IMG/VR virus record: IMGVR_UViG_3300025770_001265
Coordinates: 1-59,912 of that record
DNA: 59,912 nucleotides
Direction: 5' to 3' (one strand)
Source: a virus
Taxonomy: Duplodnaviria; Caudoviricetes
Both the position numbers and the translations under genes were made by a program. The notes beneath the pieces are model-generated. The model was not told the DNA's origin. It searched no databases and saw nothing but the letters and a program-made list of their open reading frames with translations. The first letter of the stretch is position 1. Each line of letters starts with the position of its first letter. Positions 3,301 to 59,912 of the stretch are shown here, in pieces.

Positions 3301-4709
3301 CCAGCAGCTCCTCCAAGTCCAGCAGTTCCTCTAAGTCCAGTAGCTCCAAGTCCAGTAGCTCTTCCAAATCTAGCAGCTCTTCCAAGTCCAGTAGCTCCAG
3401 TAGCTCTTCCAGGTCCAATAGCTCCAAGTCTAGTAGCTCTTCCAAGTCCAGTAGCTCTTCCAGGTCCAATAGCTCCAAGTCTAGTAGCTCTTCCAAGTCC
3501 AGTAGCTCTTCCAAATCCAGTAGCTCCTCTAAGTCCAGTAGCAGCTCTGAGCAGGAACCTGCTCTGCCAACCTGTGTGTCTATACTCAATTATGCTAATC
3601 CATATGGGGACTTTAATAATCCTCCGATGGAATTGACGTATCAAGGAGGATACGGGCAAGCAGCAACTTGGACCTTCAACACAGGAAACGGCACAACCAG
3701 TGGGGACGCTGAGTATAAAATTTTATATGGCGTGCACCCAACCATTAACTGGATTTTCGGCTGGAAATTAGAACGCCGTTATCTCTGGGCTGATCATGTT
3801 ACTTGGGACCCTTGGACGACGTTAGAGAATCCACATCAAGGCGCGTTTTGGGCGGTCACGCCACAAGACGTGTGGAGTGCCTCCAACAATTACGGCGGCT
3901 ACCGTCCATCAGACTGCACACCCCTTTCATCCACCTCTAGCTCCTCAATCAGCTCTGAGAGTAGCTCCAGTAGCTCCAAAAGCTCGAGTAGTAGTAACAG
4001 TAGTTCCAGTTCCAGTATGTCTAGCAGCTCTTCATATACGGTACCTACTTCTTATCAAACGATAACAGCAGCTGCTAATATTAAAGCATACCCAAGTGCA
4101 GCCACGGGGTGTAACGGAAACGGAGTTAATGTAGTACACCAAACAATTACCGGAGCAACTTCTGGGGAATTTTATTTTATCGAATTTTGGGTAAAAAGAG
4201 ATTTGGCAATGACGACAACTACATATATCAAAAGTGGCGGCGACGGGAGCTCGTGGAACCAAGGGGTGGATTGTTGGGCTCTAGGAGTACCAAAGACAGT
4301 AAGCCAGAATTGTGTGGCCTCTGGTAATTTCGGAACTGAAGGATCCTCCAATCCAGCTGACGACCCTCTTATTACATGGTATGGCTATGGCGGACTTTAT
4401 GATTGGTGTCGGGTTCAGTATAAAGTGCACCCAGGTGCTGGCGATCCGACGAATTCGGCGTTCCCTGGTGGTACCGTTGATGTATGTTTGGGCTTTTGGG
4501 ACGCGTCAGGGATTTCGAGTCCGGTGTTGACAGGTGACGCTTTTAAAATAGCAACACAATCTGGATACGAACCTTGGATGAATGCAGGTTTAGGTGGTGA
4601 TAGGGATTACCGCAAAGGTACTAACATATTGAGCTCGCCAACGGACCTAACTGCTGGAAATTGGGTTAGAACCAGCGATGGCGGCGGTTACCATCTAACG
4701 ATTAGTTAA
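369..4709 (+). CDS. Giant modular Ser-rich protein, putative virion fibre/adhesin
   Basis: 1446 aa: three Cys-pair modules (KLCVDTG..NCF, SICISGICFES, KICVAGRCYES), two Ca-binding-like DxDxDG motifs (DADRDGTPNYLDSDP, DSDNDGIPDSSDSDP), three GKPTYSNGxGWYMFxDGSxWVI-type modules, long poly-Ser/Lys linkers, Trp/Gly-rich C-terminal domains. Confidence 0.7.
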   Translation: MAEVYIDSDKEVLKINGRCYYKVPGDKAYRTHLGNVIEDDFSDCRDCYEITSIVASSTTTINGDRTKLRFKGLVGETALLIFDTGTAIYNIHIANIGGSFVWDYGNNNNVLHTFGAPPENYTFVLGSHTHTIEFIELGSFIFNVKFNITDVVTPEAGMVGSIDNDDAGLNEWLQYGKRVKLCVDTGTSSTNCFTIDYGDNDGAGVPILTNDQLFQEFVRQVNQANLGITGLVDSNGDLIIYDNTTKLSPDLSLTVIDIGGNVPDITVTVSEEPAFDADRDGTPNYLDSDPFGEVGARVAGLNVGSLPIEFGTNVSDYISICISGICFESATPATTTINALNSIVSQVNSGTAQSGMRASFTGGIFKTWFPANNRVKPWMQVKYSIGTINNGMLTYLDGSTILDLTDSDNDGIPDSSDSDPLGLTNTGVTPAVFDDANIPNTFPTHENDKIKICVAGRCYESDLPPTTKAAALEQIANKIAADYAAGLIPYTATYDAVNQDLIIIDALTGLAPTPITATVVTGGVESSLQEGQLATPIPVTGEYGITGFNGDLAGANGTYVIEDNTVGGKPTYSNGEGWYMFWDGSQWVITNSPYDKTGSWIGNGSAEIGAGNFDTTNGHNGFDVQVATATEESIEISGLAGLYAGANSSFSVDGGDLNGKPTYSNGAGWYMFFDGSTWVITNSAYDKTSLWLTNGNDNPAAGSYDTGIPITGFTPPKDEANGNYRKTGQLDVYGIPIYENENGWKLSYNPDKGGWILFKGLWPSASWIGSGNQTGDPSNSVFDYTLHGGSADFASQGGTSGVVQVSAESELDVPFTEFVLNLATPTPTVPPVDTTAISSSSSKSSSSSKSSSKSSSSKSSSFSSFSSSSSDSDGSSKSSKSSSNSSSSSVSSTSSSFSSSSSDSDGSSKSSKSSSNSSSSSVSSTSSSFSSSKSSSSSKSSSSSKSSSSKSSSSSKSSSSSKSTSSKSSSSKSSSSKSSSSSKSSSSSKSSSSKSSSSSKSSSSSKSSSSSSSSRSNSSKSSSSSKSSSSSRSNSSKSSSSSKSSSSSKSSSSSKSSSSSEQEPALPTCVSILNYANPYGDFNNPPMELTYQGGYGQAATWTFNTGNGTTSGDAEYKILYGVHPTINWIFGWKLERRYLWADHVTWDPWTTLENPHQGAFWAVTPQDVWSASNNYGGYRPSDCTPLSSTSSSSISSESSSSSSKSSSSSNSSSSSSMSSSSSYTVPTSYQTITAAANIKAYPSAATGCNGNGVNVVHQTITGATSGEFYFIEFWVKRDLAMTTTTYIKSGGDGSSWNQGVDCWALGVPKTVSQNCVASGNFGTEGSSNPADDPLITWYGYGGLYDWCRVQYKVHPGAGDPTNSAFPGGTVDVCLGFWDASGISSPVLTGDAFKIATQSGYEPWMNAGLGGDRDYRKGTNILSSPTDLTAGNWVRTSDGGGYHLTIS
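2954..3164 (+). repeat. 96-bp tandem duplication within the Ser-rich linker
   Basis: cagtagcttcagtagctcctcctcagattctgatggatcc...agtacatc starts at 2954 and again at 3050, with a partial third copy at 3146. Confidence 0.85.
3165..3548 (+). repeat. Degenerate 15/18-bp repeats encoding (KSSSS/KSSSSS)n
   Basis: aagtccagtagctcc / aaatctagcagctcttcc variants in tandem. Confidence 0.85.
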
Positions 4710-26705: not shown

Positions 26706-28140
26706 ATTTCATTGGTATGATACGGTACTTGTGATTGAGAATCCTACAGCCAAAATGGAAAAATTTTTAGTGTGGGATAAGAAAAAATTAGTTCTTGATA
26801 AAAGAACATTTACAAGAAGATCTAAAATTGAAAAAGTAAAACTTTTTAATGTTTGGCATGAAGGTAGTAAAAGAAAAGGTCGTGTAATTGAAACTCCACA
26901 CGGCTTTAAAGATCAATTAATATTAATGTGTAAGAAGGAAGGGGAAAAATGGGAGTTATTCGATAAACGTATTCCCGTAAAGGCGCCAAAATTAGGTTTG
27001 ACTGGAGGATTTAGACTTGAACAGCAACCACTATTCGAAGAATTTATTGGTAAAAATCAATCTGGAATACTACAGGCTCCAACGCGTTATGGTAAGAGTA
27101 TAATGATAATAAACACCATGCGTGCATTTCCTAATATGAAAACAGTTGTTGCCGCTCCGGGTGTAGATTTACTAAATCAAACTGTAGATGATTTTAAAAA
27201 AGCATTGCCTGAACGTGATATTAAAGGAGTGTTTACCGGCAGTAAAAATAGAACGCAGTCTGCAGATATAACAATATGTAGTTTAGATTCCCTACATAAA
27301 ATGGATACTGAGGGTACTCATTTATTATTGATCGATGAGCCGCACGCTGCTGTTAGCGAGACAAGAGCACCTGTAATAGCTAGATTTAAAAATGCTAGAA
27401 TTTATGGTTTTGGCGCAACGTTAACAGGTAGGTATGATAATGCGGACAAGTTACTCACCGGACTAGTAGGTCCAGTACTAGCAAAACGTACATTTAGAGA
27501 GGCTGTAAGTGAAAATGCGATATGTGACATTGAAGTCTATATGGTACGTTTTCCTTTTGAGGCTTTCTCTTGTCGTAAACGAGAATTAGCTTATAAGCGT
27601 TTATTGTACGAAAATCAAATATTCATAGACGCAGTAGGTTCTATAGCAAATAGTGTTTTACCTAAAAACTGGCAGACTATAATATTCGTAGATCAACAGA
27701 AGCAGGCAGACTTATTGGCGGATAATATTGACGAAGCAAAGACCGTAATAGCCGGTAGAATGAAAATCAAAGAGCGTAAAGAAACGTTTCAAAACATGGT
27801 AAATAATCATGTGAAACGTTGCATCTGTACTGATGTATATGCGCAAGGCGTGACATTCCCAGACTTACGGGTAATGATAAATGCTGCAGGAGGAGGTGGG
27901 TCTATATCTAGTACGCAGAAACCAGGCAGGTTGGCTCAGATTAGAGAAAATAAGAATTGTGGTTATTTAGTAGATTTTTTATTTGAATGCTCAAACCCAC
28001 CTAAGCCTGAAGATAATGTACGTGGAGCAGACCTATGGCGTATGGTAGCTAATGATAGTATGCTAAGGTTACGCCAGTATGATAAATTGGGTTACAAAAT
28101 AAATGTAATCAATTCACTAGCTGAGATAACTATGACATGA
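26695..28140 (+). CDS. Superfamily 2 helicase (UvsW/ResIII-like)
   Basis: QAPTRYGKS, LIDEPH, FGATL, QGVTFPDL and QKPGRL motifs. Confidence 0.88.
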   Translation: MSVKFHWYDTVLVIENPTAKMEKFLVWDKKKLVLDKRTFTRRSKIEKVKLFNVWHEGSKRKGRVIETPHGFKDQLILMCKKEGEKWELFDKRIPVKAPKLGLTGGFRLEQQPLFEEFIGKNQSGILQAPTRYGKSIMIINTMRAFPNMKTVVAAPGVDLLNQTVDDFKKALPERDIKGVFTGSKNRTQSADITICSLDSLHKMDTEGTHLLLIDEPHAAVSETRAPVIARFKNARIYGFGATLTGRYDNADKLLTGLVGPVLAKRTFREAVSENAICDIEVYMVRFPFEAFSCRKRELAYKRLLYENQIFIDAVGSIANSVLPKNWQTIIFVDQQKQADLLADNIDEAKTVIAGRMKIKERKETFQNMVNNHVKRCICTDVYAQGVTFPDLRVMINAAGGGGSISSTQKPGRLAQIRENKNCGYLVDFLFECSNPPKPEDNVRGADLWRMVANDSMLRLRQYDKLGYKINVINSLAEITMT

Positions 28141-51923: not shown

Positions 51924-52604
51924 ATGAACGAAAATGAAAAAAGTTTTATAAAGTTAGCTGGTAGTATAAATTCAAATTGCTCAAAAGAGAGAGCACAGTT
52001 GTTACTAGAATTTATAACACAGGAGCGTATAAAAGAAGGTTTACTCGTATGTCCGGCCAGTTCAAGTAAATCGTATCATCATTGCTTTGAGGGTGGATTA
52101 CTACACCACATTAATCAAATGATTAAGATAGCATTGTGTATGCGTGAGTGTGGTCAGCCCATAATTGATAGGATAACTACCGAAAACTTAGTTACGGTTA
52201 TTGTATTACATGATCTTCACAAAATATGTGATCCTTACGGTAAATCGTATTATGTAACTAATTTACTTAAAAGCGGGAAAGCATCAGAATCAAAGCCCTT
52301 TAAAATTGCTGACAATTTTAATGATTTAAGTACTGCTATGAGCAAGTATGGCGATGCTATACTAGATTATTTTATGGAGCATTCTGACATTAAACCATCC
52401 GGCCATTTGTCTTTACTAACATTGATAAATTTTGGTATCAAATTATATAATGATCTTAGTGACGACGAGAAGCATGCAATAATTTATCATGGCGGCACTT
52501 ACGAAGTGAGTAAGTTTGAACTACGCGGAAAAGAAAGTATGCTACAATTAGTATTACATTCTGCCGACATGCTCAGCAGTAGATTTCACGAAGATGAGTG
52601 GTAA
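51924..52604 (+). CDS. HD-domain hydrolase (YhaM-like)
   Basis: CPASSSKSYHHCFEGGLLHH, LHDLHKI, AIIYHGG and LHSADM. Confidence 0.85.
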   Translation: MNENEKSFIKLAGSINSNCSKERAQLLLEFITQERIKEGLLVCPASSSKSYHHCFEGGLLHHINQMIKIALCMRECGQPIIDRITTENLVTVIVLHDLHKICDPYGKSYYVTNLLKSGKASESKPFKIADNFNDLSTAMSKYGDAILDYFMEHSDIKPSGHLSLLTLINFGIKLYNDLSDDEKHAIIYHGGTYEVSKFELRGKESMLQLVLHSADMLSSRFHEDEW

Positions 52605-56822: not shown

Positions 56823-57413
56823 ATGACAGAAGAATATAATATAAAGGATGTAGTAGAAGTTCTCTCAACCCTTGCGGTTGGAATAGGTGAGATGGGTAGT
56901 AATATGCGGGATATCTCAAATGCTGTTGGCTTAATCGCTACTAATAGCCAAGAGTTAACTGCGATTAAACATCGCCTCAGTCATCTGACTGAGACTAGCG
57001 AGCAAATTGCGTCAGCATTTGTGTTTGATCAAAAGTCTAATAAAGCGGGTGCGGTGTATCATATGGCGGGTAGTTTAAACTCTATCAAATTTGCTATGCC
57101 AGGCTACAGTCCTAATCCCCAAGGGAAACAACACAATCAACAGCCTATGTCTACCATGGACAATGACCGCAAGCGAGGCGTACGCTACACTGAAGCTCAA
57201 CACGAGCAATTTCGAGTAGCACGACAGCAACAGTATCGTCCTGACGAAAGGGCTATTGATCAACCTGTTGTTCATACTAATCTGGAGGATGCAACTAGGT
57301 TATCTGAACCTACAGCACAGAATCTAGCTAATCAAAATGATACTACAGCTCCGGCAACGCAGGAGGACATGTACTCTCTAAAAGAAAGCTTGAATATTAA
57401 GAAGACACAGTAG
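56823..57413 (+). CDS. Hypothetical protein
   Basis: 196-aa ORF. Confidence 0.65.
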   Translation: MTEEYNIKDVVEVLSTLAVGIGEMGSNMRDISNAVGLIATNSQELTAIKHRLSHLTETSEQIASAFVFDQKSNKAGAVYHMAGSLNSIKFAMPGYSPNPQGKQHNQQPMSTMDNDRKRGVRYTEAQHEQFRVARQQQYRPDERAIDQPVVHTNLEDATRLSEPTAQNLANQNDTTAPATQEDMYSLKESLNIKKTQ

Positions 57414-57444
57414 TGCAATTTAACCACGTACTGTGTTAAATATA
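57414..57444 (+). promoter_or_regulatory. Putative phage promoter, copy 6 (upstream of the ncRNA array)
   Basis: TGCAAT-17nt-TAAATA, preceded by GTGT. Confidence 0.65.
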
Positions 57445-57508
57445 ACTAGTAAGTGCGTAACTTTTGAATTGTCCTCAGTCGATAATATAAAACAATAAGC
57501 GCTTATAC

Positions 57509-57626
57509 ACGGACCTGGCACCTGCAATCAAAAAATAAGAAACCACTAATCAGGCAGCAATGCCTGTGCATCCTCCTTACGAATTGAGAGGATATAAAAT
57601 AAAACCAAATTCAAAACCAGGTCTGT
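57509..57626 (+). ncRNA. Structured RNA unit 1 (closing stem, CCUGCA motif, two inner hairpins)
   Basis: ACGGACCTGG/CCAGGTCTGT 10-bp stem; CAGGCA-GCAA-TGCCTG GNRA hairpin; ATCCTC/GAGGAT hairpin; A-rich linkers. Confidence 0.6.
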
Positions 57627-57840
57627 AATTTACAGGGTAAAGGATGGTGATAACCGACAGAAAGCTACAAGGCAGAGCAGTGCCTAGTATGCTGCCAAGG
57701 CACCATTCCGGTATGCGAGATTATAATGCGCCACAAGCAAAGTGGGTCCTATACCTACGCGCACTCTATACCACCCTACACTTTATAACTCAGGATGCCC
57801 CCTGTCATCCATAAGGTAGCGAGTGCTACTAACAGGGACC

Positions 57841-57956
57841 ATTTGTCGAATAAGTGAGTTCAAATCTCACCGTCCCAACCTTAAACGCCTTAGCGAAGAG
57901 CCTGCCGAAAGGTGGTTGGGTAAGCCGTAGCAGTTATCTGGAATGCACCGACAATT
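57841..57956 (+). ncRNA. YrlA-like Y RNA (circularly permuted tRNA mimic)
   Basis: Closing stem TTGTCG/CGACAA with GTCGAA; T-arm GTGAG-TTCAAAT-CTCAC; closed acceptor-like stem CCCAACC/GGTTGGG; then TA plus D-arm GCA-GTTATCTGGAA-TGC. Confidence 0.65.
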
Positions 57957-57958
57957 TT

Positions 57959-58015
57959 TCTGACCCATACTGCATAAACAACCAAACAAATAAAACTGGT
58001 TCCAAAAGGGTCGGA
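57959..58015 (+). ncRNA. Structured RNA unit 2 (stem plus ACUGCA motif)
   Basis: TCTGACCC/GGGTCGGA stem, ATACTGCATAAA, inner AACCA/TGGTT, AAAA before the 3' strand. Confidence 0.6.
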
Positions 58016-58021
58016 CTCTAC

Positions 58022-58077
58022 GCAGACGCTAACAGCATAAAAATTCATACCAAACCAATGAAAAAAAATGCGTCTGC
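58022..58077 (+). ncRNA. Structured RNA unit 3 (stem plus ACAGCA motif)
   Basis: GCAGACGC/GCGTCTGC stem, TAACAGCATAAAA, inner TTCAT/ATGAA, A-run before the 3' strand. Confidence 0.65.
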
Positions 58078-58090
58078 ACTAAAAGACAAT

Positions 58091-58168
58091 TTGGAAGGGG
58101 AAGGGACGGAGTCAAACTGTAGTTGAGTTCCCGCTCAGCTCGACGGCTCTGCCCTTCCATCCTTCCAA
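58091..58168 (+). ncRNA. Structured RNA unit 4 (22-bp interrupted stem plus ACUGUA)
   Basis: TTGGAAGG/CCTTCCAA, GGAAGGG/CCCTTCC and CGGAGTC/GGCTCTG, then AAACTGT and inner AGTTGAG/CTCAGCT. Confidence 0.6.
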
Positions 58169-58181
58169 TTACAATTTCACA

Positions 58182-58275
58182 CGAAGGCCTGTTAGCCCTC
58201 GCTTATAAACACCTTGGGGAAGGGATATGGAGACATTGTTTATAAGTTGAGGGCTTAGGTTTCGCCCTTTTTTTT
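58182..58275 (+). ncRNA. Long interrupted hairpin followed by a U-tract (RNA unit and/or terminator)
   Basis: CGAAGGCCT/AGGTTTCG, AGCCCTC/GAGGGCT and GCTTATAAACA/TGTTTATAAGT, then CCC and T8. Confidence 0.55.
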
Positions 58276-58307
58276 AACCACTAATAATATCAACAAAAGG
58301 ATTAGCT

Positions 58308-59912
58308 ATGATGGAACCAGCGCAAAGCCCACTTCTTAAGGGGCTAGAAGAAAACTTAAGTAATATGACAACCACCGAAAACGGAGCTCTAGCATATAAG
58401 AGATCCGGAAATGAATTGGTTGATGCCTTCGAAAGAATCGGAGGAAGTAGACAAGACCCAGAAGCATTCTGGTCAATATTCTTAGCCGCCTATTATACAG
58501 ACGCTTTAAAAGCTCTGAAAATTCTCTTCTACGGGAGAAACCCTCGAGGGGGTATGGGCGAGCGTCAGTTGTTTAGACACACGATCAGCAACATGGCAAG
58601 TAATGCGGATCCTCAATTAGTTGAGCATCTTATAATGAATCTTGGTAATATTTCCTTACTTGGGAGATGGGATGATTTATTGTGCTTGATTGATGAGAAA
58701 CGCCAGATCGACGATCATGGACCTACTGTCGGAAAGATGGTTATGGACTATTTAGGTTATTCACTTTCTAGAGATCTAGGAATTGACCCCGAACATCGAA
58801 ATAGTCCTATATCGCTTTTAGCTAAATGGCTACCAAGCGATAATACCTCTAGTAGGAAAACGAGAGCCTTGGCTTCCAAGTTGAAGAAACAATGGGGAAT
58901 GTCCTCTACTGAGTATAGAGGGATATTAAAGAAACTACGCCAACAACTTGGTGATGCTGTCGTAGAGACTAAAATGTCCAGAAAGAAGTTTGAGACCATT
59001 GATTTCTCCAAGGTATGTTCCAAGGCCATGCTGACTTATAGCAAAAGTTTCCTTAAGCACGACTTAGAGCGTTATGAGGCTTGGCAGTTAGATGTTGCTG
59101 AAGGAAAGTCCAAAGTGAATGCTAGCGTACTATACCCCTATGAGATTGTACGTAGTGCACATCAAGTAGACCTGATTCGGGAAGAAAGTGCATTAGCTGA
59201 ATCAGAGATACTCTCTCTGGATAATCAATGGAACGCATTGCCTGACTATCTAACGGCTGAAGATGGCTCCAAGACAAATGCCTTGGCAGTTATTGACGTA
59301 TCTAGCAGCATGCATCAGATAGTATCCGGCAAGACATCGGCTATGGACGTTGCTATAAGTTTGGGGATTTATATCGCACAAAGATGTAGCAATGCCTTTC
59401 AAGGTAGTTTCATGACTTTTGCGAGTAATCCTAGCCTAGTCCAATTAGAGGGTGATAACATTGTCGATATAATTCACAATGTAGCTGGAGCTGACTGGGG
59501 TGGTTCAACTAATCTGATAGCCTCATTCGAACTCATTCTAAAGGTTGCAAAGGAAAAGCAATTAGATCAAAAGGATCTGCCGGAATGGATATTCATCCCA
59601 TCGGACTGTGAGTTTGATTACCAGGTTCGTATATCAGATGAAGATCATGAAATGACACCTCATCAAACTATCGCAAGAAAGTTTACAGAGGCAGGGTATG
59701 TCATACCTAAGCTTGTCTATTGGAATCTTTGCTCTCGTCAGCAACAAGTTCCAATGAGTCATAATGACTACGGTATGATGGTATCAGGTTTCTCACCAGC
59801 CATTCTCAAAGCAGTTTTCGCTGCTAAGGAGATTACTCCGACTGATGTAATGGAAGCAGCCATTAACGATCCTGTTTATGACTGCATAAAGATAGATACG
59901 AACGTCGTCCAA
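58308..59912 (+). CDS. DUF2828-like Ro60/TROVE-related vWA protein (runs off the window end, nearly complete; absent from the ORF track)
   Basis: Manual translation from ATG 58308: TTTENGALAY, RNPRGGMGERQLF, GRWDDL, LLAKWLPS, VNASVLYPYEIV, QWNALPDY, MIDAS-like VIDVSSSM, AISLG, WGGSTN, SDCEFD, VYWNL, SGFSP. Confidence 0.85.
   Translation, partial: MMEPAQSPLLKGLEENLSNMTTTENGALAYKRSGNELVDAFERIGGSRQDPEAFWSIFLAAYYTDALKALKILFYGRNPRGGMGERQLFRHTISNMASNADPQLVEHLIMNLGNISLLGRWDDLLCLIDEKRQIDDHGPTVGKMVMDYLGYSLSRDLGIDPEHRNSPISLLAKWLPSDNTSSRKTRALASKLKKQWGMSSTEYRGILKKLRQQLGDAVVETKMSRKKFETIDFSKVCSKAMLTYSKSFLKHDLERYEAWQLDVAEGKSKVNASVLYPYEIVRSAHQVDLIREESALAESEILSLDNQWNALPDYLTAEDGSKTNALAVIDVSSSMHQIVSGKTSAMDVAISLGIYIAQRCSNAFQGSFMTFASNPSLVQLEGDNIVDIIHNVAGADWGGSTNLIASFELILKVAKEKQLDQKDLPEWIFIPSDCEFDYQVRISDEDHEMTPHQTIARKFTEAGYVIPKLVYWNLCSRQQQVPMSHNDYGMMVSGFSPAILKAVFAAKEITPTDVMEAAINDPVYDCIKIDTNVVQ

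What the first reader, a model, noticed from the sequence alone, without database searches (positions are those of the whole stretch)
57841..57956. Circularly permuted tRNA mimic with the YrlA Y-RNA layout
Seen: tRNA parts in permuted order - closing stem 5' strand TTGTCG, short linker AATAA, perfect T-arm GTGAG-TTCAAAT-CTCAC, acceptor-like stem closed by an insert (CCCAACC...GGTTGGG, with a GAAA hairpin nearby), then U8-A9-like TA, D-arm GCA-GTTATCTGGAA-TGC with the conserved GG, and 3' strand CGACAA. There is no anticodon loop or CCA end. Known: bacterial YrlA RNAs have this T-acceptor-D permutation and, as I recall, a GNCGAA motif on the 5' strand; GTCGAA is at 57845-57850. Inference: a Y RNA paired with a DUF2828 gene rather than a canonical Rsr would extend the Ro/Y world. 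The base of the acceptor-like stem is irregular.
Basis: partly seen in the sequence, partly recalled or inferred. Interest (0 to 1): 0.85.

Follow-up and report, generated by a model that had tools for sequence, protein, structure and literature searches.

The report
Ro-like phage protein with tRNA-mimic RNAs
A marine phage carries a probable tRNA look-alike RNA and a small stem RNA just upstream of a gene whose protein folds like the RNA-quality-control protein Ro60, and the stem RNA belongs to a widespread, apparently undescribed RNA family found beside such genes in many phages and bacteria.

Summary
A strict T-arm motif is expected about 1.3 times per window by chance, the fold z-score is -1.0, the D-arm is poor, and the Rfam YrlA model gives no match. 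Context rescues the idea. The downstream DUF2828/DUF7788 protein folds like Ro60: the top 12 PDB matches are all Ro60/TROVE. In 164 loci with homologues, a new covariance model finds 285 matches in 135 loci, all on the gene strand. Each is a 7-bp covarying stem followed by single-stranded NN-ACAGCAA. These units come bare, enclosing tRNA-like domains, or inside the anticodon loop of tRNA-shaped RNAs. At least 11 enclose a clean T-arm / closed acceptor stem / D-arm permutation; six units in four loci score 24-44 bits with Rfam YrlA, below its 69-bit cut-off. Verdict: a real Ro-like/Y-RNA-like locus of a new variant class. The exact YrlA fold of this element is plausible but unproven.

The parts
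57815..57830 (+).
   Evidence: Pair probabilities 0.88-0.96 in RNAfold. It resembles the 'hairpin-type' motif seen in tRNA-shaped relatives, but model R3 gives no match here at E<=10.
57830..57838 (+). UAACAGGGA, a possible degenerate version of the family's NN-ACAGCAA single-stranded motif.
   Evidence: Read from the sequence. Not statistically supported: R1 and R3 do not match.
57843..57954 (+). tRNA-like module. It consists of: closing stem 57843-48/57949-54; 5-nt linker 57849-53; T-arm 57854-70; acceptor-like stem 57874-80/57914-20 (plus 57871-72/57926-27) with a 33-nt insert; UA 57928-29; weak D-arm 57930-46.
   Evidence: Minimum-energy structure and pair probabilities. It is the top match in the whole window, both strands, of the permuted-core model R2 (57848-57947, 13.2 bits, E 0.036). 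No tRNA call and no YrlA match.
57955..57959 (+). Run of five U directly after the closing stem.
   Evidence: Sequence. The terminator scan did not call it.
58018..58081 (+). Clear member of the DUF2828-associated RNA family. Stem GCAGACGC/GCGUCUGC, then UA-ACAGCAU at the start of a 32-nt loop.
   Evidence: Best match of model R1 in the whole window, both strands: 26.2 bits, E 2.3e-4. 7 of 7 Watson-Crick pairs.
58091..58275 (+). Two long hairpins (58091-58168 and 58182-58264). The second is followed by CCC and a run of eight U (58268-58275), about 30 nt before the start codon.
   Evidence: MFE -80 kcal/mol, z-score -6.07, 0 of 200 shuffles fold as well. The simple terminator scan did not call it because its loop and stem limits are exceeded.
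57440..57815 (+). Structured upstream part of the same 894-nt gene-free gap.
   Evidence: z-score -3.48. Contigs from RNA libraries cover 57408-57776.
58308..59912 (+). Gene for a DUF2828 + DUF7788 (vWA-type) protein with a Ro60-like fold. It runs off the window end.
   Evidence: Pfam PF11443 (2e-33) and PF25043 (2.5e-44). PHROG 850 'RNA-binding protein', 1.6e-105. AlphaFold model with pLDDT 89.9. Foldseek top 12 matches are all Ro60/TROVE.

Best explanation
The 894-nt gene-free gap upstream of the DUF2828 gene encodes small structured RNAs that are the RNA partners of that protein, much as Y RNAs partner Ro60.

Shown:
- The protein has the Ro60 ring-plus-vWA fold.
- Homologous genes are almost always flanked, on the same strand, by units made of a covarying 7-bp stem plus single-stranded NN-ACAGCAA.
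- The window holds one clear unit at 58018-58081.

Inferred:
- The protein binds that stem and motif.
- The variable part of each RNA presents a piece of tRNA to a second factor such as a tRNA-modifying, tRNA-cleaving or tRNA-repair enzyme. In relatives the variable part is a plain hairpin, an anticodon-arm look-alike, a whole permuted tRNA-like domain, or a tRNA body.
It most likely folds as closing stem / T-arm / closed acceptor-like stem / degenerate D-arm.
- It is most likely made on one transcript with the adjacent stem unit. It would therefore play the YrlA-like role, and 58018-58081 the protein-binding (YrlB-like) role.

The purpose is probably to protect or manage tRNA during infection, or to blunt a host defence.
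For: Protein:
- Foldseek top 12 PDB matches are all Ro60/TROVE (2i91 E 2.7e-8, about 570 aligned columns, TM 0.57). They include Deinococcus Rsr and Thermus phage phiLo Ro60.
- Columns compatible with a vWA metal site are invariant or nearly so: D330, S332, S334, T401, D433.

RNA family:
- ACAGCAA occurs 542 times on the gene strand and 56 times on the other strand, in 143 of 160 loci. It peaks in the 1 kb before the gene.
- 290 of 535 copies have a perfect 7-bp partner downstream, against 45 of 640 random positions.
- Model R1: 164 of 164 and 121 of 121 matches lie on the gene strand. By my hand count of those tables, 71 of 83 and 64 of 81 sources have a match.
- All 7 pairs covary. 173 cells changed on both sides against 40.9 in shuffles, and 99.6% are paired.
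- Strict T-arm motifs: 459 on the gene strand and 9 on the other. 238 lie outside called tRNAs.
- 11 clean permuted T / closed-acceptor / D units are bracketed by the stem-ACAGCAA motif. Rfam YrlA scores six units in four loci at 24-44 bits.

Window:
- R1 match at 58018-58081, E 2.3e-4.
- The minimum-energy fold agrees.
- Contigs from three RNA libraries of two studies cover 57840-58252 at 99% identity or more. One spans 57840-58102, that is both modules.

Function hint:
- Bas63 gene 130 is a homologue (E 1e-66).
- A preprint (PMC11482910, passages read) reports that it counters the ppl defence, looks like Ro60 and sits next to tRNA genes.
Against:
- R1 does not match it, and R3 (hairpin + ACAGCAA) does not match it at E<=10.
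- Its R2 score of 13.2 bits is below every R2 match listed in the relatives, all of which score 18.6 bits or more. R2 also responds to junctions of neighbouring tRNAs.
- The fold z-score is only -1.0.
- The D stem has pair probability 0.06-0.07 and lacks an A directly after the stem.
- The acceptor-like stem is irregular.
- No orthologue was found, so there is no covariation for this particular fold.
- A strict T-arm is expected by chance about once per window.
- RNA-library contigs cannot prove transcription, ends or strand.
- Protein-RNA binding has not been shown for any DUF2828 protein.
- Per the preprint, Bas63 gp130 alone, expressed from a plasmid, restored T7 plaquing on the ppl strain. 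At least that activity therefore needs no phage RNA.
Confidence: 0.6

Rival explanations
1. The element is a tRNA-like module but not permuted. GGGAC (57835-39) pairs with GUCCC (57872-76) to give an acceptor/T-arm minihelix followed by AACC. There is no D-arm, and an outer stem UGCUAC (57824-29)/GUAGCA (57927-32) may mimic the family's long-range stem.
For: - Constrained folds lie within 2-3 kcal/mol of the minimum: -36.7 to -37.1 against -39.3.
- The best downstream partner of the strand before ACAG is GTAGCAG at 57927, with 6 of 7 pairs.
- Relatives L158 and L161 have non-permuted tRNA-like domains with a short acceptor stem followed by AACC/AGCC inside a long-range unit.
Against: - Pair probabilities are only 0.05 for the minihelix and 0.04 for the outer stem.
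- Model R1, which encodes the long-range stem, does not match.
- Model R2 aligns the region in the permuted order.
Confidence: 0.15
2. The element is a decayed tRNA remnant or a chance assembly of stems with no function of its own. Only the unit at 58018-58081 and the long hairpins matter.
For: - A T-arm is expected by chance about 1.3 times per window.
- z-score is -1.0.
- The D-arm is poor.
- There is no YrlA, tRNA or R3 match.
- No orthologues were found.
- The closest protein relatives, L003-L005, show only bare stem units and no T-arm upstream.
Against: - T-arm-bearing non-tRNA elements are about 50-fold enriched on the gene strand of DUF2828 loci.
- The only T-arm in 60 kb falls 450 nt upstream of the gene, on its strand, and 60 nt from a bona fide unit.
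- It is the top R2 match in the window.
- RNA-library contigs cover it.
Confidence: 0.2
3. The T-arm plus CGTCCCAACC is the 3' part of a host tRNA gene kept as a phage attachment site.
For: The order T-arm, 7 nt, A, CC resembles a tRNA 3' end.
Against: - No integrase or any recognisable recombination gene was found among the 10 upstream reading frames scanned.
- The record looks like part of a large lytic-type phage, with CheckV completeness 33% of the genome.
- The family-wide association with DUF2828 explains the T-arm better.
Confidence: 0.03

Closest known systems
YrlA / YrlB Y RNAs with bacterial Ro60 (Rsr); Chen et al. 2014, PMC4201824 (passages read); Rfam RF02553
   Same: - Small RNAs are encoded next to, and on the strand of, a ring-shaped Ro-fold protein with a vWA domain.
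- One class carries a T-arm / closed acceptor stem / D-arm domain in permuted order. A second class is a plain stem RNA.
- A short conserved purine-rich motif sits beside the terminal stem.
- Six units in four DUF2828 loci are picked up by the YrlA model at 24-44 bits.
   Different: - The protein is DUF2828/DUF7788, not Pfam TROVE. Its sequence profile matches TROVE chains only at E 1.2.
- The conserved RNA signature is a covarying 7-bp stem plus NN-ACAGCAA, not GNCGAAN0-1G.
- All matches stay below the YrlA cut-off of 69 bits, and the window's element has no match at all.
- Additional architectures exist: the motif inside the anticodon loop of tRNA-shaped RNAs, and a non-permuted tRNA-like domain inside the loop.
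Thermus phage phiLo Ro60 with Yrl1/Yrl2 (PMC12135203; passages read; PDB 9kop, 9l5y)
   Same: - A phage-encoded Ro-fold protein with two small RNAs encoded just upstream of its gene.
- That paper proposes it acts on host factors during infection.
- Both PDB entries are among the Foldseek matches.
   Different: - phiLo Ro60 is a recognised TROVE protein.
- Its RNAs were picked by a CGAA motif.
- No tRNA-like domain is mentioned in the passages I read.
Bas63 gp130 (bas63_0130), anti-ppl factor (preprint PMC11482910; passages read)
   Same: - It is a homologue of the window's protein (E 1e-66, 37% identity).
- The authors note Ro60-like structure and suggest that some neighbouring 'tRNA' genes may be Y RNAs.
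- An R1 unit lies in the adjacent tRNA array (L169 2235-2302, E 1.5e-7).
   Different: - In the passages I read, the preprint defines no RNA motif or structure.
- It reports that the protein alone suffices against ppl when expressed with T7.
Canonical tRNA and phage tRNA arrays
   Same: T-loop sequence, 5-bp T stem, GG in the D-like loop, and frequent placement inside or beside tRNA arrays.
   Different: - No anticodon arm and no open acceptor end in the window's element.
- ARAGORN and Rfam tRNA give no call.

Membership tests
YrlA (Rfam RF02553; Chen et al. 2014) | Match to the YrlA covariance model at or above 69 bits | tested here: not met
   No match at gathering score. None at E<=10 in 57300-58400. 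None at E<=10 with RF02553 on the whole record.
YrlA (Rfam RF02553; Chen et al. 2014) | T stem-loop with a tRNA-type T-loop | tested here: met
   GUGAG-UUCAAAU-CUCAC at 57854-70, pair probability 0.98-0.99.
YrlA (Rfam RF02553; Chen et al. 2014) | Nearly invariant D stem-loop | tested here: inconclusive
   3-bp GCA/UGC stem with an 11-nt loop containing GG. Pair probability is 0.06-0.07 and there is no A right after the stem. R2 aligns it only with a 2-nt insertion.
YrlA (Rfam RF02553; Chen et al. 2014) | [quoted passage not shown] | tested here: met
   7 bp 57874-80/57914-20, probability 0.91-0.94. However, there is a 3-nt gap after the T stem and a 33-nt insert. Clean relatives have no gap.
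YrlA (Rfam RF02553; Chen et al. 2014) | GNCGAAN0-1G near the 5' end | tested here: not met
   GUCGAA at 57845-50 is followed by U and A. The full motif occurs at 57904, inside the acceptor insert. It occurs 14 times on the + strand of the window.
YrlA (Rfam RF02553; Chen et al. 2014) | Encoded within 4 kb of a Ro60 orthologue, on the same strand | tested here: inconclusive
   Same strand, 354 nt upstream of the gene. The protein is Ro60-like by fold but is not a Pfam TROVE protein.
YrlA (Rfam RF02553; Chen et al. 2014) | Bound by the Ro protein; carries tRNA-type modifications | not testable with these tools
   Needs immunoprecipitation and modification mapping.
DUF2828-associated stem-ACAGCAA RNA (defined here, model R1) | Covarying 7-bp stem, NN-ACAGCAA after its 5' strand, G after its 3' strand | tested here: met
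Met for 58018-58081: 26.2 bits, E 2.3e-4, best match in the window.
DUF2828-associated stem-ACAGCAA RNA (defined here, model R1) | Same strand as, and within about 1 kb of, a DUF2828 gene | tested here: met
   Both window elements lie 230-470 nt upstream on the + strand. In relatives, 285 of 285 matches are on the gene strand.
Permuted T / closed-acceptor / D core of DUF2828 loci (model R2) | Match to the core model built from 11 clean units | tested here: inconclusive
   Top match in the window but only 13.2 bits, rough E 0.036. Training-type units score 45-70 bits.
Canonical tRNA | Cloverleaf with an anticodon arm and an open acceptor stem | tested here: not met
   ARAGORN finds 0 genes. No Rfam tRNA match.
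Ro60/TROVE (for the protein) | HEAT-repeat ring plus vWA domain | tested here: met
   Model pLDDT 89.9, pTM 0.90. The 12 best PDB matches are all Ro60/TROVE over 529-582 columns.
Ro60/TROVE (for the protein) | Sequence match to the TROVE family | tested here: not met
   Pfam gives DUF2828, DUF7788 and weak VWA_2 only. The profile against PDB matches TROVE chains at E 1.2.

The most novel reading that the evidence does not exclude
DUF2828 proteins and stem-ACAGCAA RNAs form a second, mostly phage-borne Ro/Y-RNA world. One protein-binding handle (a 7-bp stem plus ACAGCAA) is fused in several connectivities to exchangeable mimics of tRNA parts: anticodon arms, T/acceptor/D cores and whole tRNA bodies. 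These RNAs would work as decoys or adaptors that let phages sense, repair or shield tRNAs from host anticodon nucleases and other defences. The marine phage in this window expresses a two-module version.
Probability: 0.4. Interest if true: 0.85.

Novelty: new variant of a known kind. Interest (0 to 1): 0.75.

Why it matters
Ro60 and Y RNAs are a classic but narrowly distributed RNA-surveillance system. Chen et al. 2014 state that about 5% of bacterial genomes carry a recognisable Ro60.

Here a protein family of unknown function turns out to have the Ro60 fold. It is present in 705 of 50,697 deposited phage genomes. These include Felix O1-like coliphages, Listeria, Staphylococcus, Campylobacter and mycobacterial phages, and many gut and rumen bacterial genomes also carry it.

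The family comes with its own conserved small RNAs, which no Rfam 15 model picked up in the window or in the 23 loci scanned. This gives a concrete, testable RNA partner for a protein already reported to defeat a bacterial defence system in a model phage. It also suggests that many 'odd tRNAs' and small 'hypothetical proteins' annotated in phage tRNA arrays are in fact Y-like RNAs.

Tried and rejected
Searches for relatives of the window's non-coding DNA.
- blastn against 50,697 phage records.
- nhmmer against 160 loci.
- Single-protein scans of viral and metagenome contigs.
- Two exact or gapped DNA patterns in viral contigs.

Rfam: no family other than tRNA, plus one NiCo riboswitch, reached threshold in 23 loci. 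Low-scoring window matches (Plastid-ycf2, miRNA and similar) were dismissed as chance.

Model R1 matches at 27007 and 26732 lie inside a 481-aa reading frame and were dismissed.

Model R2 cannot be used to count permuted units in relatives. It also scores junctions of neighbouring tRNAs, the same problem Chen et al. mention for dimeric tRNAs.

Model R3 (hairpin + ACAGCAA) gave no match at 57815-57838. The resemblance of that hairpin-UAACAG to the family motif may therefore be coincidence.

ARAGORN intron mode gives arbitrary anticodons and intron positions 31-40 for the tRNA-shaped RNAs. I therefore rejected the reading that these are intron-containing tRNAs.

RNA-library contigs:
- No contig covers 57300-57393 or 58287-58474 in the RNA runs. 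The tool says this proves nothing.
- Contig ends are 57840, 57859 and 57894 on the left, and 58085, 58102 and 58252 on the right. They do not coincide well enough to call RNA ends.

The promoter/terminator scan found nothing on the + strand.

An accession recalled from memory for Bas63 was wrong. The right one came from the preprint.

The earlier-findings look-up held no note on DUF2828.
Full report
WHAT IS AT THE COORDINATES

The window is a 59,912-base viral record, estimated 33% complete. Runs that hold it are marine metagenomes. The finding lies in an 894-nt gap without reading frames (57414-58307). The gap sits between a 196-aa frame and a frame of at least 535 aa that runs off the window.

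ARAGORN finds no tRNA or tmRNA anywhere in the window. Rfam release 15 gives no match at gathering scores. A permissive scan of 57300-58400 gives no tRNA, Y_RNA or YrlA match up to E = 10. RF02553 (YrlA, 114 positions, cut-off 69 bits) gives no match at E <= 10 on the whole record.

IS IT MORE THAN CHANCE ON ITS OWN? NO

- The strict T-arm descriptor (5-bp stem, at most one G-U, loop TTCRANN) hits once in both strands of the window. However, 300 shuffles give a mean of 1.33, and 75% have at least one hit.
- The fold energy is unremarkable, with z = -0.95 and -1.04.
- GNCGAA occurs 52 times in the window. The copy at 57845 lacks the trailing N0-1G of the motif as published (motif from PMC4201824, passages read).

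| Helix | Pair probability |
|---|---|
| Closing stem | 0.74-0.92 |
| T-arm | 0.98-0.99 |
| 7-bp acceptor-like stem | 0.91-0.94 |
| Proposed D stem | 0.06-0.07 |

These are the GGGAC/GUCCC minihelix and an outer stem 57824-29/57927-32. They lie within 2-3 kcal/mol of the minimum.

THE NEIGHBOURING PROTEIN HAS THE Ro60 FOLD

- The frame 58308-59912 carries Pfam DUF2828 (2e-33) and DUF7788 (2.5e-44), with a weak VWA_2 match. It belongs to PHROG 850, 'RNA-binding protein'.
- A profile of 29 homologues matches TROVE chains of the PDB only at E = 1.2.
- The AlphaFold model has mean pLDDT 89.9 and pTM 0.90. Its 12 best Foldseek PDB matches are all Ro60/TROVE entries. These are Xenopus and human Ro60, Deinococcus Rsr and Thermus phage phiLo Ro60. 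E-values run from 2.7e-8 to 1.1e-5, over 529-582 aligned columns. TM (query-normalised) is 0.44-0.58, except 0.36 for 2nvo. Next come isolated vWA domains.
- Invariant or nearly invariant columns D330, S332, S334, T401 and D433 fit a vWA metal site (inference).

The family is large:
- 1,899 clusters with E <= 1e-5 among 8,000 scored candidates.
- Homologues in 705 of 50,697 phage records. These include Felixounavirus, Listeria, Staphylococcus, Campylobacter, Vibrio and Bacillus phages, and mycobacteriophages whose gene is already annotated 'Ro-like RNA binding protein'.
- Pfam confirms DUF2828 + DUF7788 for the Finnry, REP7 and LP-125 proteins.

A CONSERVED RNA FAMILY FLANKS DUF2828 GENES

I fetched 80 viral and 80 genomic loci with homologues of 33-39% identity, each oriented with the gene on the + strand. 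Sequence search with the window's gap found nothing, but simple descriptors were striking.

- T-arms: 459 strict motifs on the gene strand and 9 on the other, in 952 kb. ARAGORN tRNAs hold 221 of them, and 238 do not lie in a called tRNA.
- ACAGCAA heptamer: 542 occurrences on the gene strand and 56 on the other, in 143 of 160 loci. It is concentrated in the 1 kb before the gene.
- Upstream consensus: AAAGRCRC-NN.
- Pairing: in 290 of 535 copies the seven bases before NN-ACAGCAA have a perfect partner 28-136 nt downstream (median 54). That compares with 45 of 640 random positions. In 53 of 535 the partner lies just upstream as a small hairpin, against 16 of 640.

The unit is therefore a 7-bp stem, then NN-ACAGCAA single-stranded at the top of its 5' strand, and a G after its 3' strand.

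A covariance model of 73 non-redundant units (alignment A2, model R1) gave these results:

| Search set | Matches at E <= 0.01 | On gene strand | Sources with a match (my hand count) |
|---|---|---|---|
| 83 sources | 164 | 164 | 71 |
| 81 sources | 121 | 121 | 64 |

The model also matched loci that lack an exact ACAGCAA. On the 121 model-aligned matches, all 7 pairs show changes on both sides. 173 cells changed on both sides, against 40.9 +/- 5.0 in shuffles. 99.6% of cells are paired, against 31-55% when the partner is slid by 1-3 columns.

Two caveats apply. The A2 set was selected for perfect pairing. The A5 alignment is fitted to the model.

No Rfam family other than tRNA, plus one NiCo riboswitch, matched 23 of these loci.

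The units occur in cultured phages:
- Three in tandem downstream of the gene in mycobacteriophage Finnry. They overlap an annotated 'hypothetical protein'.
- Four among the tRNAs of Felixounavirus REP7.
- Three upstream of the gene in Listeria phage LP-125, which also has an RtcB-like ligase about 1.3 kb downstream.
- One in the Bas63 tRNA array.

ARCHITECTURES OF THE RNA UNITS

(i) Bare units whose loop holds a small hairpin. These hairpins often carry 7-nt anticodon-like loops. Among 280 unique units the commonest are CUGUUAA (14), CUUUUAA (10) and CUGUCAA (5).

(ii) Units whose loop encloses a tRNA-like domain in normal order with a short acceptor stem: L158, L161, L139, L154.

(iii) Units whose loop encloses T-arm / closed acceptor stem / two bases / canonical D-arm, that is, the YrlA permutation. 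I found 11 clean non-redundant cases bracketed by the stem-ACAGCAA motif:
- L014 2084
- L018 3960
- L065 4155
- L084 139
- L084 400
- L101 2262
- L120 48
- L124 2401
- L152 2130
- L163 4086 (Finnry)
- L164 5427 (REP7, annotated there as a 131-nt 'tRNA-Thr')

An alignment of 11 such cores shows 97% paired cells, and 13 of 16 pairs change on both sides. The Rfam YrlA model scores the L018 unit at 43.8 bits, the Finnry unit at 39.5, the two L014 units at 33.6 and 24.2, and the two L084 units at 35.4 and 30.9. All are below the 69-bit cut-off.

(iv) tRNA-shaped RNAs of 113-144 nt with open acceptor ends. Their anticodon loop is replaced by hairpin-NN-ACAGCAA.
- The Rfam tRNA model matches them end to end with a long insertion (folds).
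- ARAGORN in intron mode such RNAs of 100-150 nt on the gene strand and none on the other.
- 68 carry an exact ACAGCAA at position 52-68.
- Their 'anticodons' and 'intron' positions are arbitrary, so they are not intron-bearing tRNAs.

(v) Arrays in which hairpin-ACAGCAA precedes an anticodon-like arm, a T-arm, an acceptor stem with a long insert, and a D-arm (L061 4105-4260).

WHAT THIS MEANS FOR THE WINDOW

Model R1's best match in the entire window, both strands, is 58018-58081: 26.2 bits, E 2.3e-4. It reads stem GCAGACGC/GCGUCUGC, then UA-ACAGCAU, then a 32-nt loop. This is the family signature.

Model R2 was built from the 11 permuted cores. Its top match in the window, both strands, is 57848-57947. 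It aligns the T-arm, a 2-bp base of the acceptor stem with the rest as an insert, UA, and the D-arm with a 2-nt insertion. The score is only 13.2 bits (rough E 0.036). That is lower than every R2 match in the relatives, and R2 is confounded there by tRNA-tRNA junctions.

A hairpin at 57815-57830 followed by UAACAGGGA looks like architecture (v). However, model R3 was built from 15 hairpin-type motifs and does not match it at E <= 10. That link therefore stays a resemblance only.

The rest of the gap is strongly structured:
- 58085-58285 folds into two long hairpins with z = -6.07. The second is followed by eight U about 30 nt before the start codon.
- 57440-57815 has z = -3.48.

HINTS OF EXPRESSION

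Contigs from three metatranscriptome libraries of two studies lie on the gap at 99% identity or more:
- X3: 57461-57612 and 57840-58102.
- X4: 57471-57702 and 57859-58252.
- X6: 57408-57620, 57635-57776 and 57894-58085.

The X3 contig 57840-58102 spans both the tRNA-like element and the R1 unit. Contigs cannot show strand, ends or level, and DNA can contaminate RNA libraries. This shows presence in RNA libraries and nothing more.

MOST LIKELY MECHANISM

Shown: the Ro60 fold of the protein; a strand-specific, covarying, widely conserved RNA unit beside the gene; tRNA-like domains joined to that unit in several connectivities.

Inferred:
- By analogy with Ro60 and Y RNA, the protein binds the stem-ACAGCAA handle. 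Per the text of PMC4201824, Ro60 contacts a conserved motif on the 5' strand of the terminal stem.
- The variable module presents a tRNA part to another factor.
- The frequent placement inside phage tRNA arrays points to tRNA surveillance, repair or protection during infection. So does the RtcB-like ligase near the gene in LP-125. So do the anticodon-like loops.
- Bas63 gene 130 is a homologue. The preprint PMC11482910 (passages only) reports three things. Its deletion reduces plaque size on a ppl-carrying host. The protein looks like Ro60. The protein alone restores T7 plaquing on that host. The last point means at least one activity does not need the phage RNAs.

For the window I favour a two-module arrangement: the tRNA-like module 57843-57954 plus the protein-binding unit 58018-58081. 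They may lie on one precursor.

| Reading | My odds |
|---|---|
| The locus is a Ro-like/Y-like RNP system | 0.8 |
| It adopts the permuted fold as drawn | about 0.45 |

COMPARISON WITH WHAT IS KNOWN, AND NOVELTY

The system works like Rsr with YrlA/YrlB, and like phiLo Ro60 with Yrl1/2 (PMC12135203; passages read). It is not a member of YrlA as defined. The model cut-off is not reached anywhere, the sequence motif differs, and the protein is not TROVE by sequence.

The Ro-like nature of these proteins is already noted in mycobacteriophage annotations and in the Bas63 preprint. That preprint also guessed that some neighbouring tRNAs might be Y RNAs.

I found no description of the stem-ACAGCAA RNA.
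- A full-text search for 'DUF2828' gave 5 unrelated papers.
- A search for 'DUF7788', 'Ro-like RNA binding protein', 'Ro-like protein' or 'Ro60-like' gave 10 papers, none of which, judging from titles and abstract starts, describes such an RNA.
- A search for Ro60 / Y RNA / phage / TROVE gave 6 papers. I read passages of three.

The supplementary tables of Chen et al. 2014, which list phage YrlA RNAs, were not available. They may include some units of type (iii).

I rate this a new variant of a known kind.

Noticed in passing
window 58091-58275: Two very stable long hairpins (z = -6.07). The second is followed by CCC and eight U only about 30 nt before the DUF2828 start codon. This looks like a strong terminator or attenuator between the RNA cluster and the gene.
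   Followed up: partly
window 57440-57815: The upstream half of the gap is also structured (z = -3.48). RNA-library contigs cover 57408-57776, and X3 gives 57461-57612 the highest depth figure (20). It holds a CAGGC-AGCAA-UGCCUG hairpin at about 57550-57565. It may be a further small RNA.
   Followed up: partly
loci L028, L031, L055, L081, L109, L116, L104, L128 and others (loops of R1 units): Many bare units carry an anticodon-arm look-alike. Among 280 unique units the counts are CUGUUAA 14, CUUUUAA 10 and CUGUCAA 5. From my own knowledge, GUN and UUU anticodons belong to tRNAs targeted by known anticodon nucleases and by the queuosine enzyme. This hints at decoy or adaptor roles.
   Followed up: partly
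L163 3975-4242 (mycobacteriophage Finnry): Three tandem units lie downstream of the 'Ro-like RNA binding protein' gene. One is a YrlA-like permuted tRNA mimic. They overlap the annotated 'hypothetical protein' gene 55, which is probably not a protein gene. A hairpin with a U run follows at about 4250-4285.
   Followed up: partly
L164 5321-5451 (Escherichia phage REP7) and L169 (Bas63 tRNA array): The 131-nt 'tRNA-Thr' annotated in REP7 contains a stem-ACAGCAA unit around a permuted T/acceptor/D core. In Bas63, two small antisense 'hypothetical proteins' (bas63_0137 and bas63_0138) sit in the equivalent gap of the tRNA array.
   Followed up: partly
L165 5352-6506 (Listeria phage LP-125): An RtcB-like RNA ligase gene lies about 1.3 kb downstream of the DUF2828 gene. 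This recalls the rsr-yrlBA-rtcBA arrangement of enterobacteria.
   Followed up: no
window 57904-57911: The full published YrlA motif GNCGAAN0-1G (here GCCGAAAG) occurs inside the insert of the acceptor-like stem, as the GAAA-loop hairpin. It occurs 14 times on the + strand of the window, so this may be chance.
   Followed up: partly
window 51924-52604: A reading frame with a weak match to a metal-dependent phosphohydrolase PHROG (E 1.9e-4) and to PHROG 5889 (6.4e-14). The other neighbours of the DUF2828 gene have no recognisable family.
   Followed up: no
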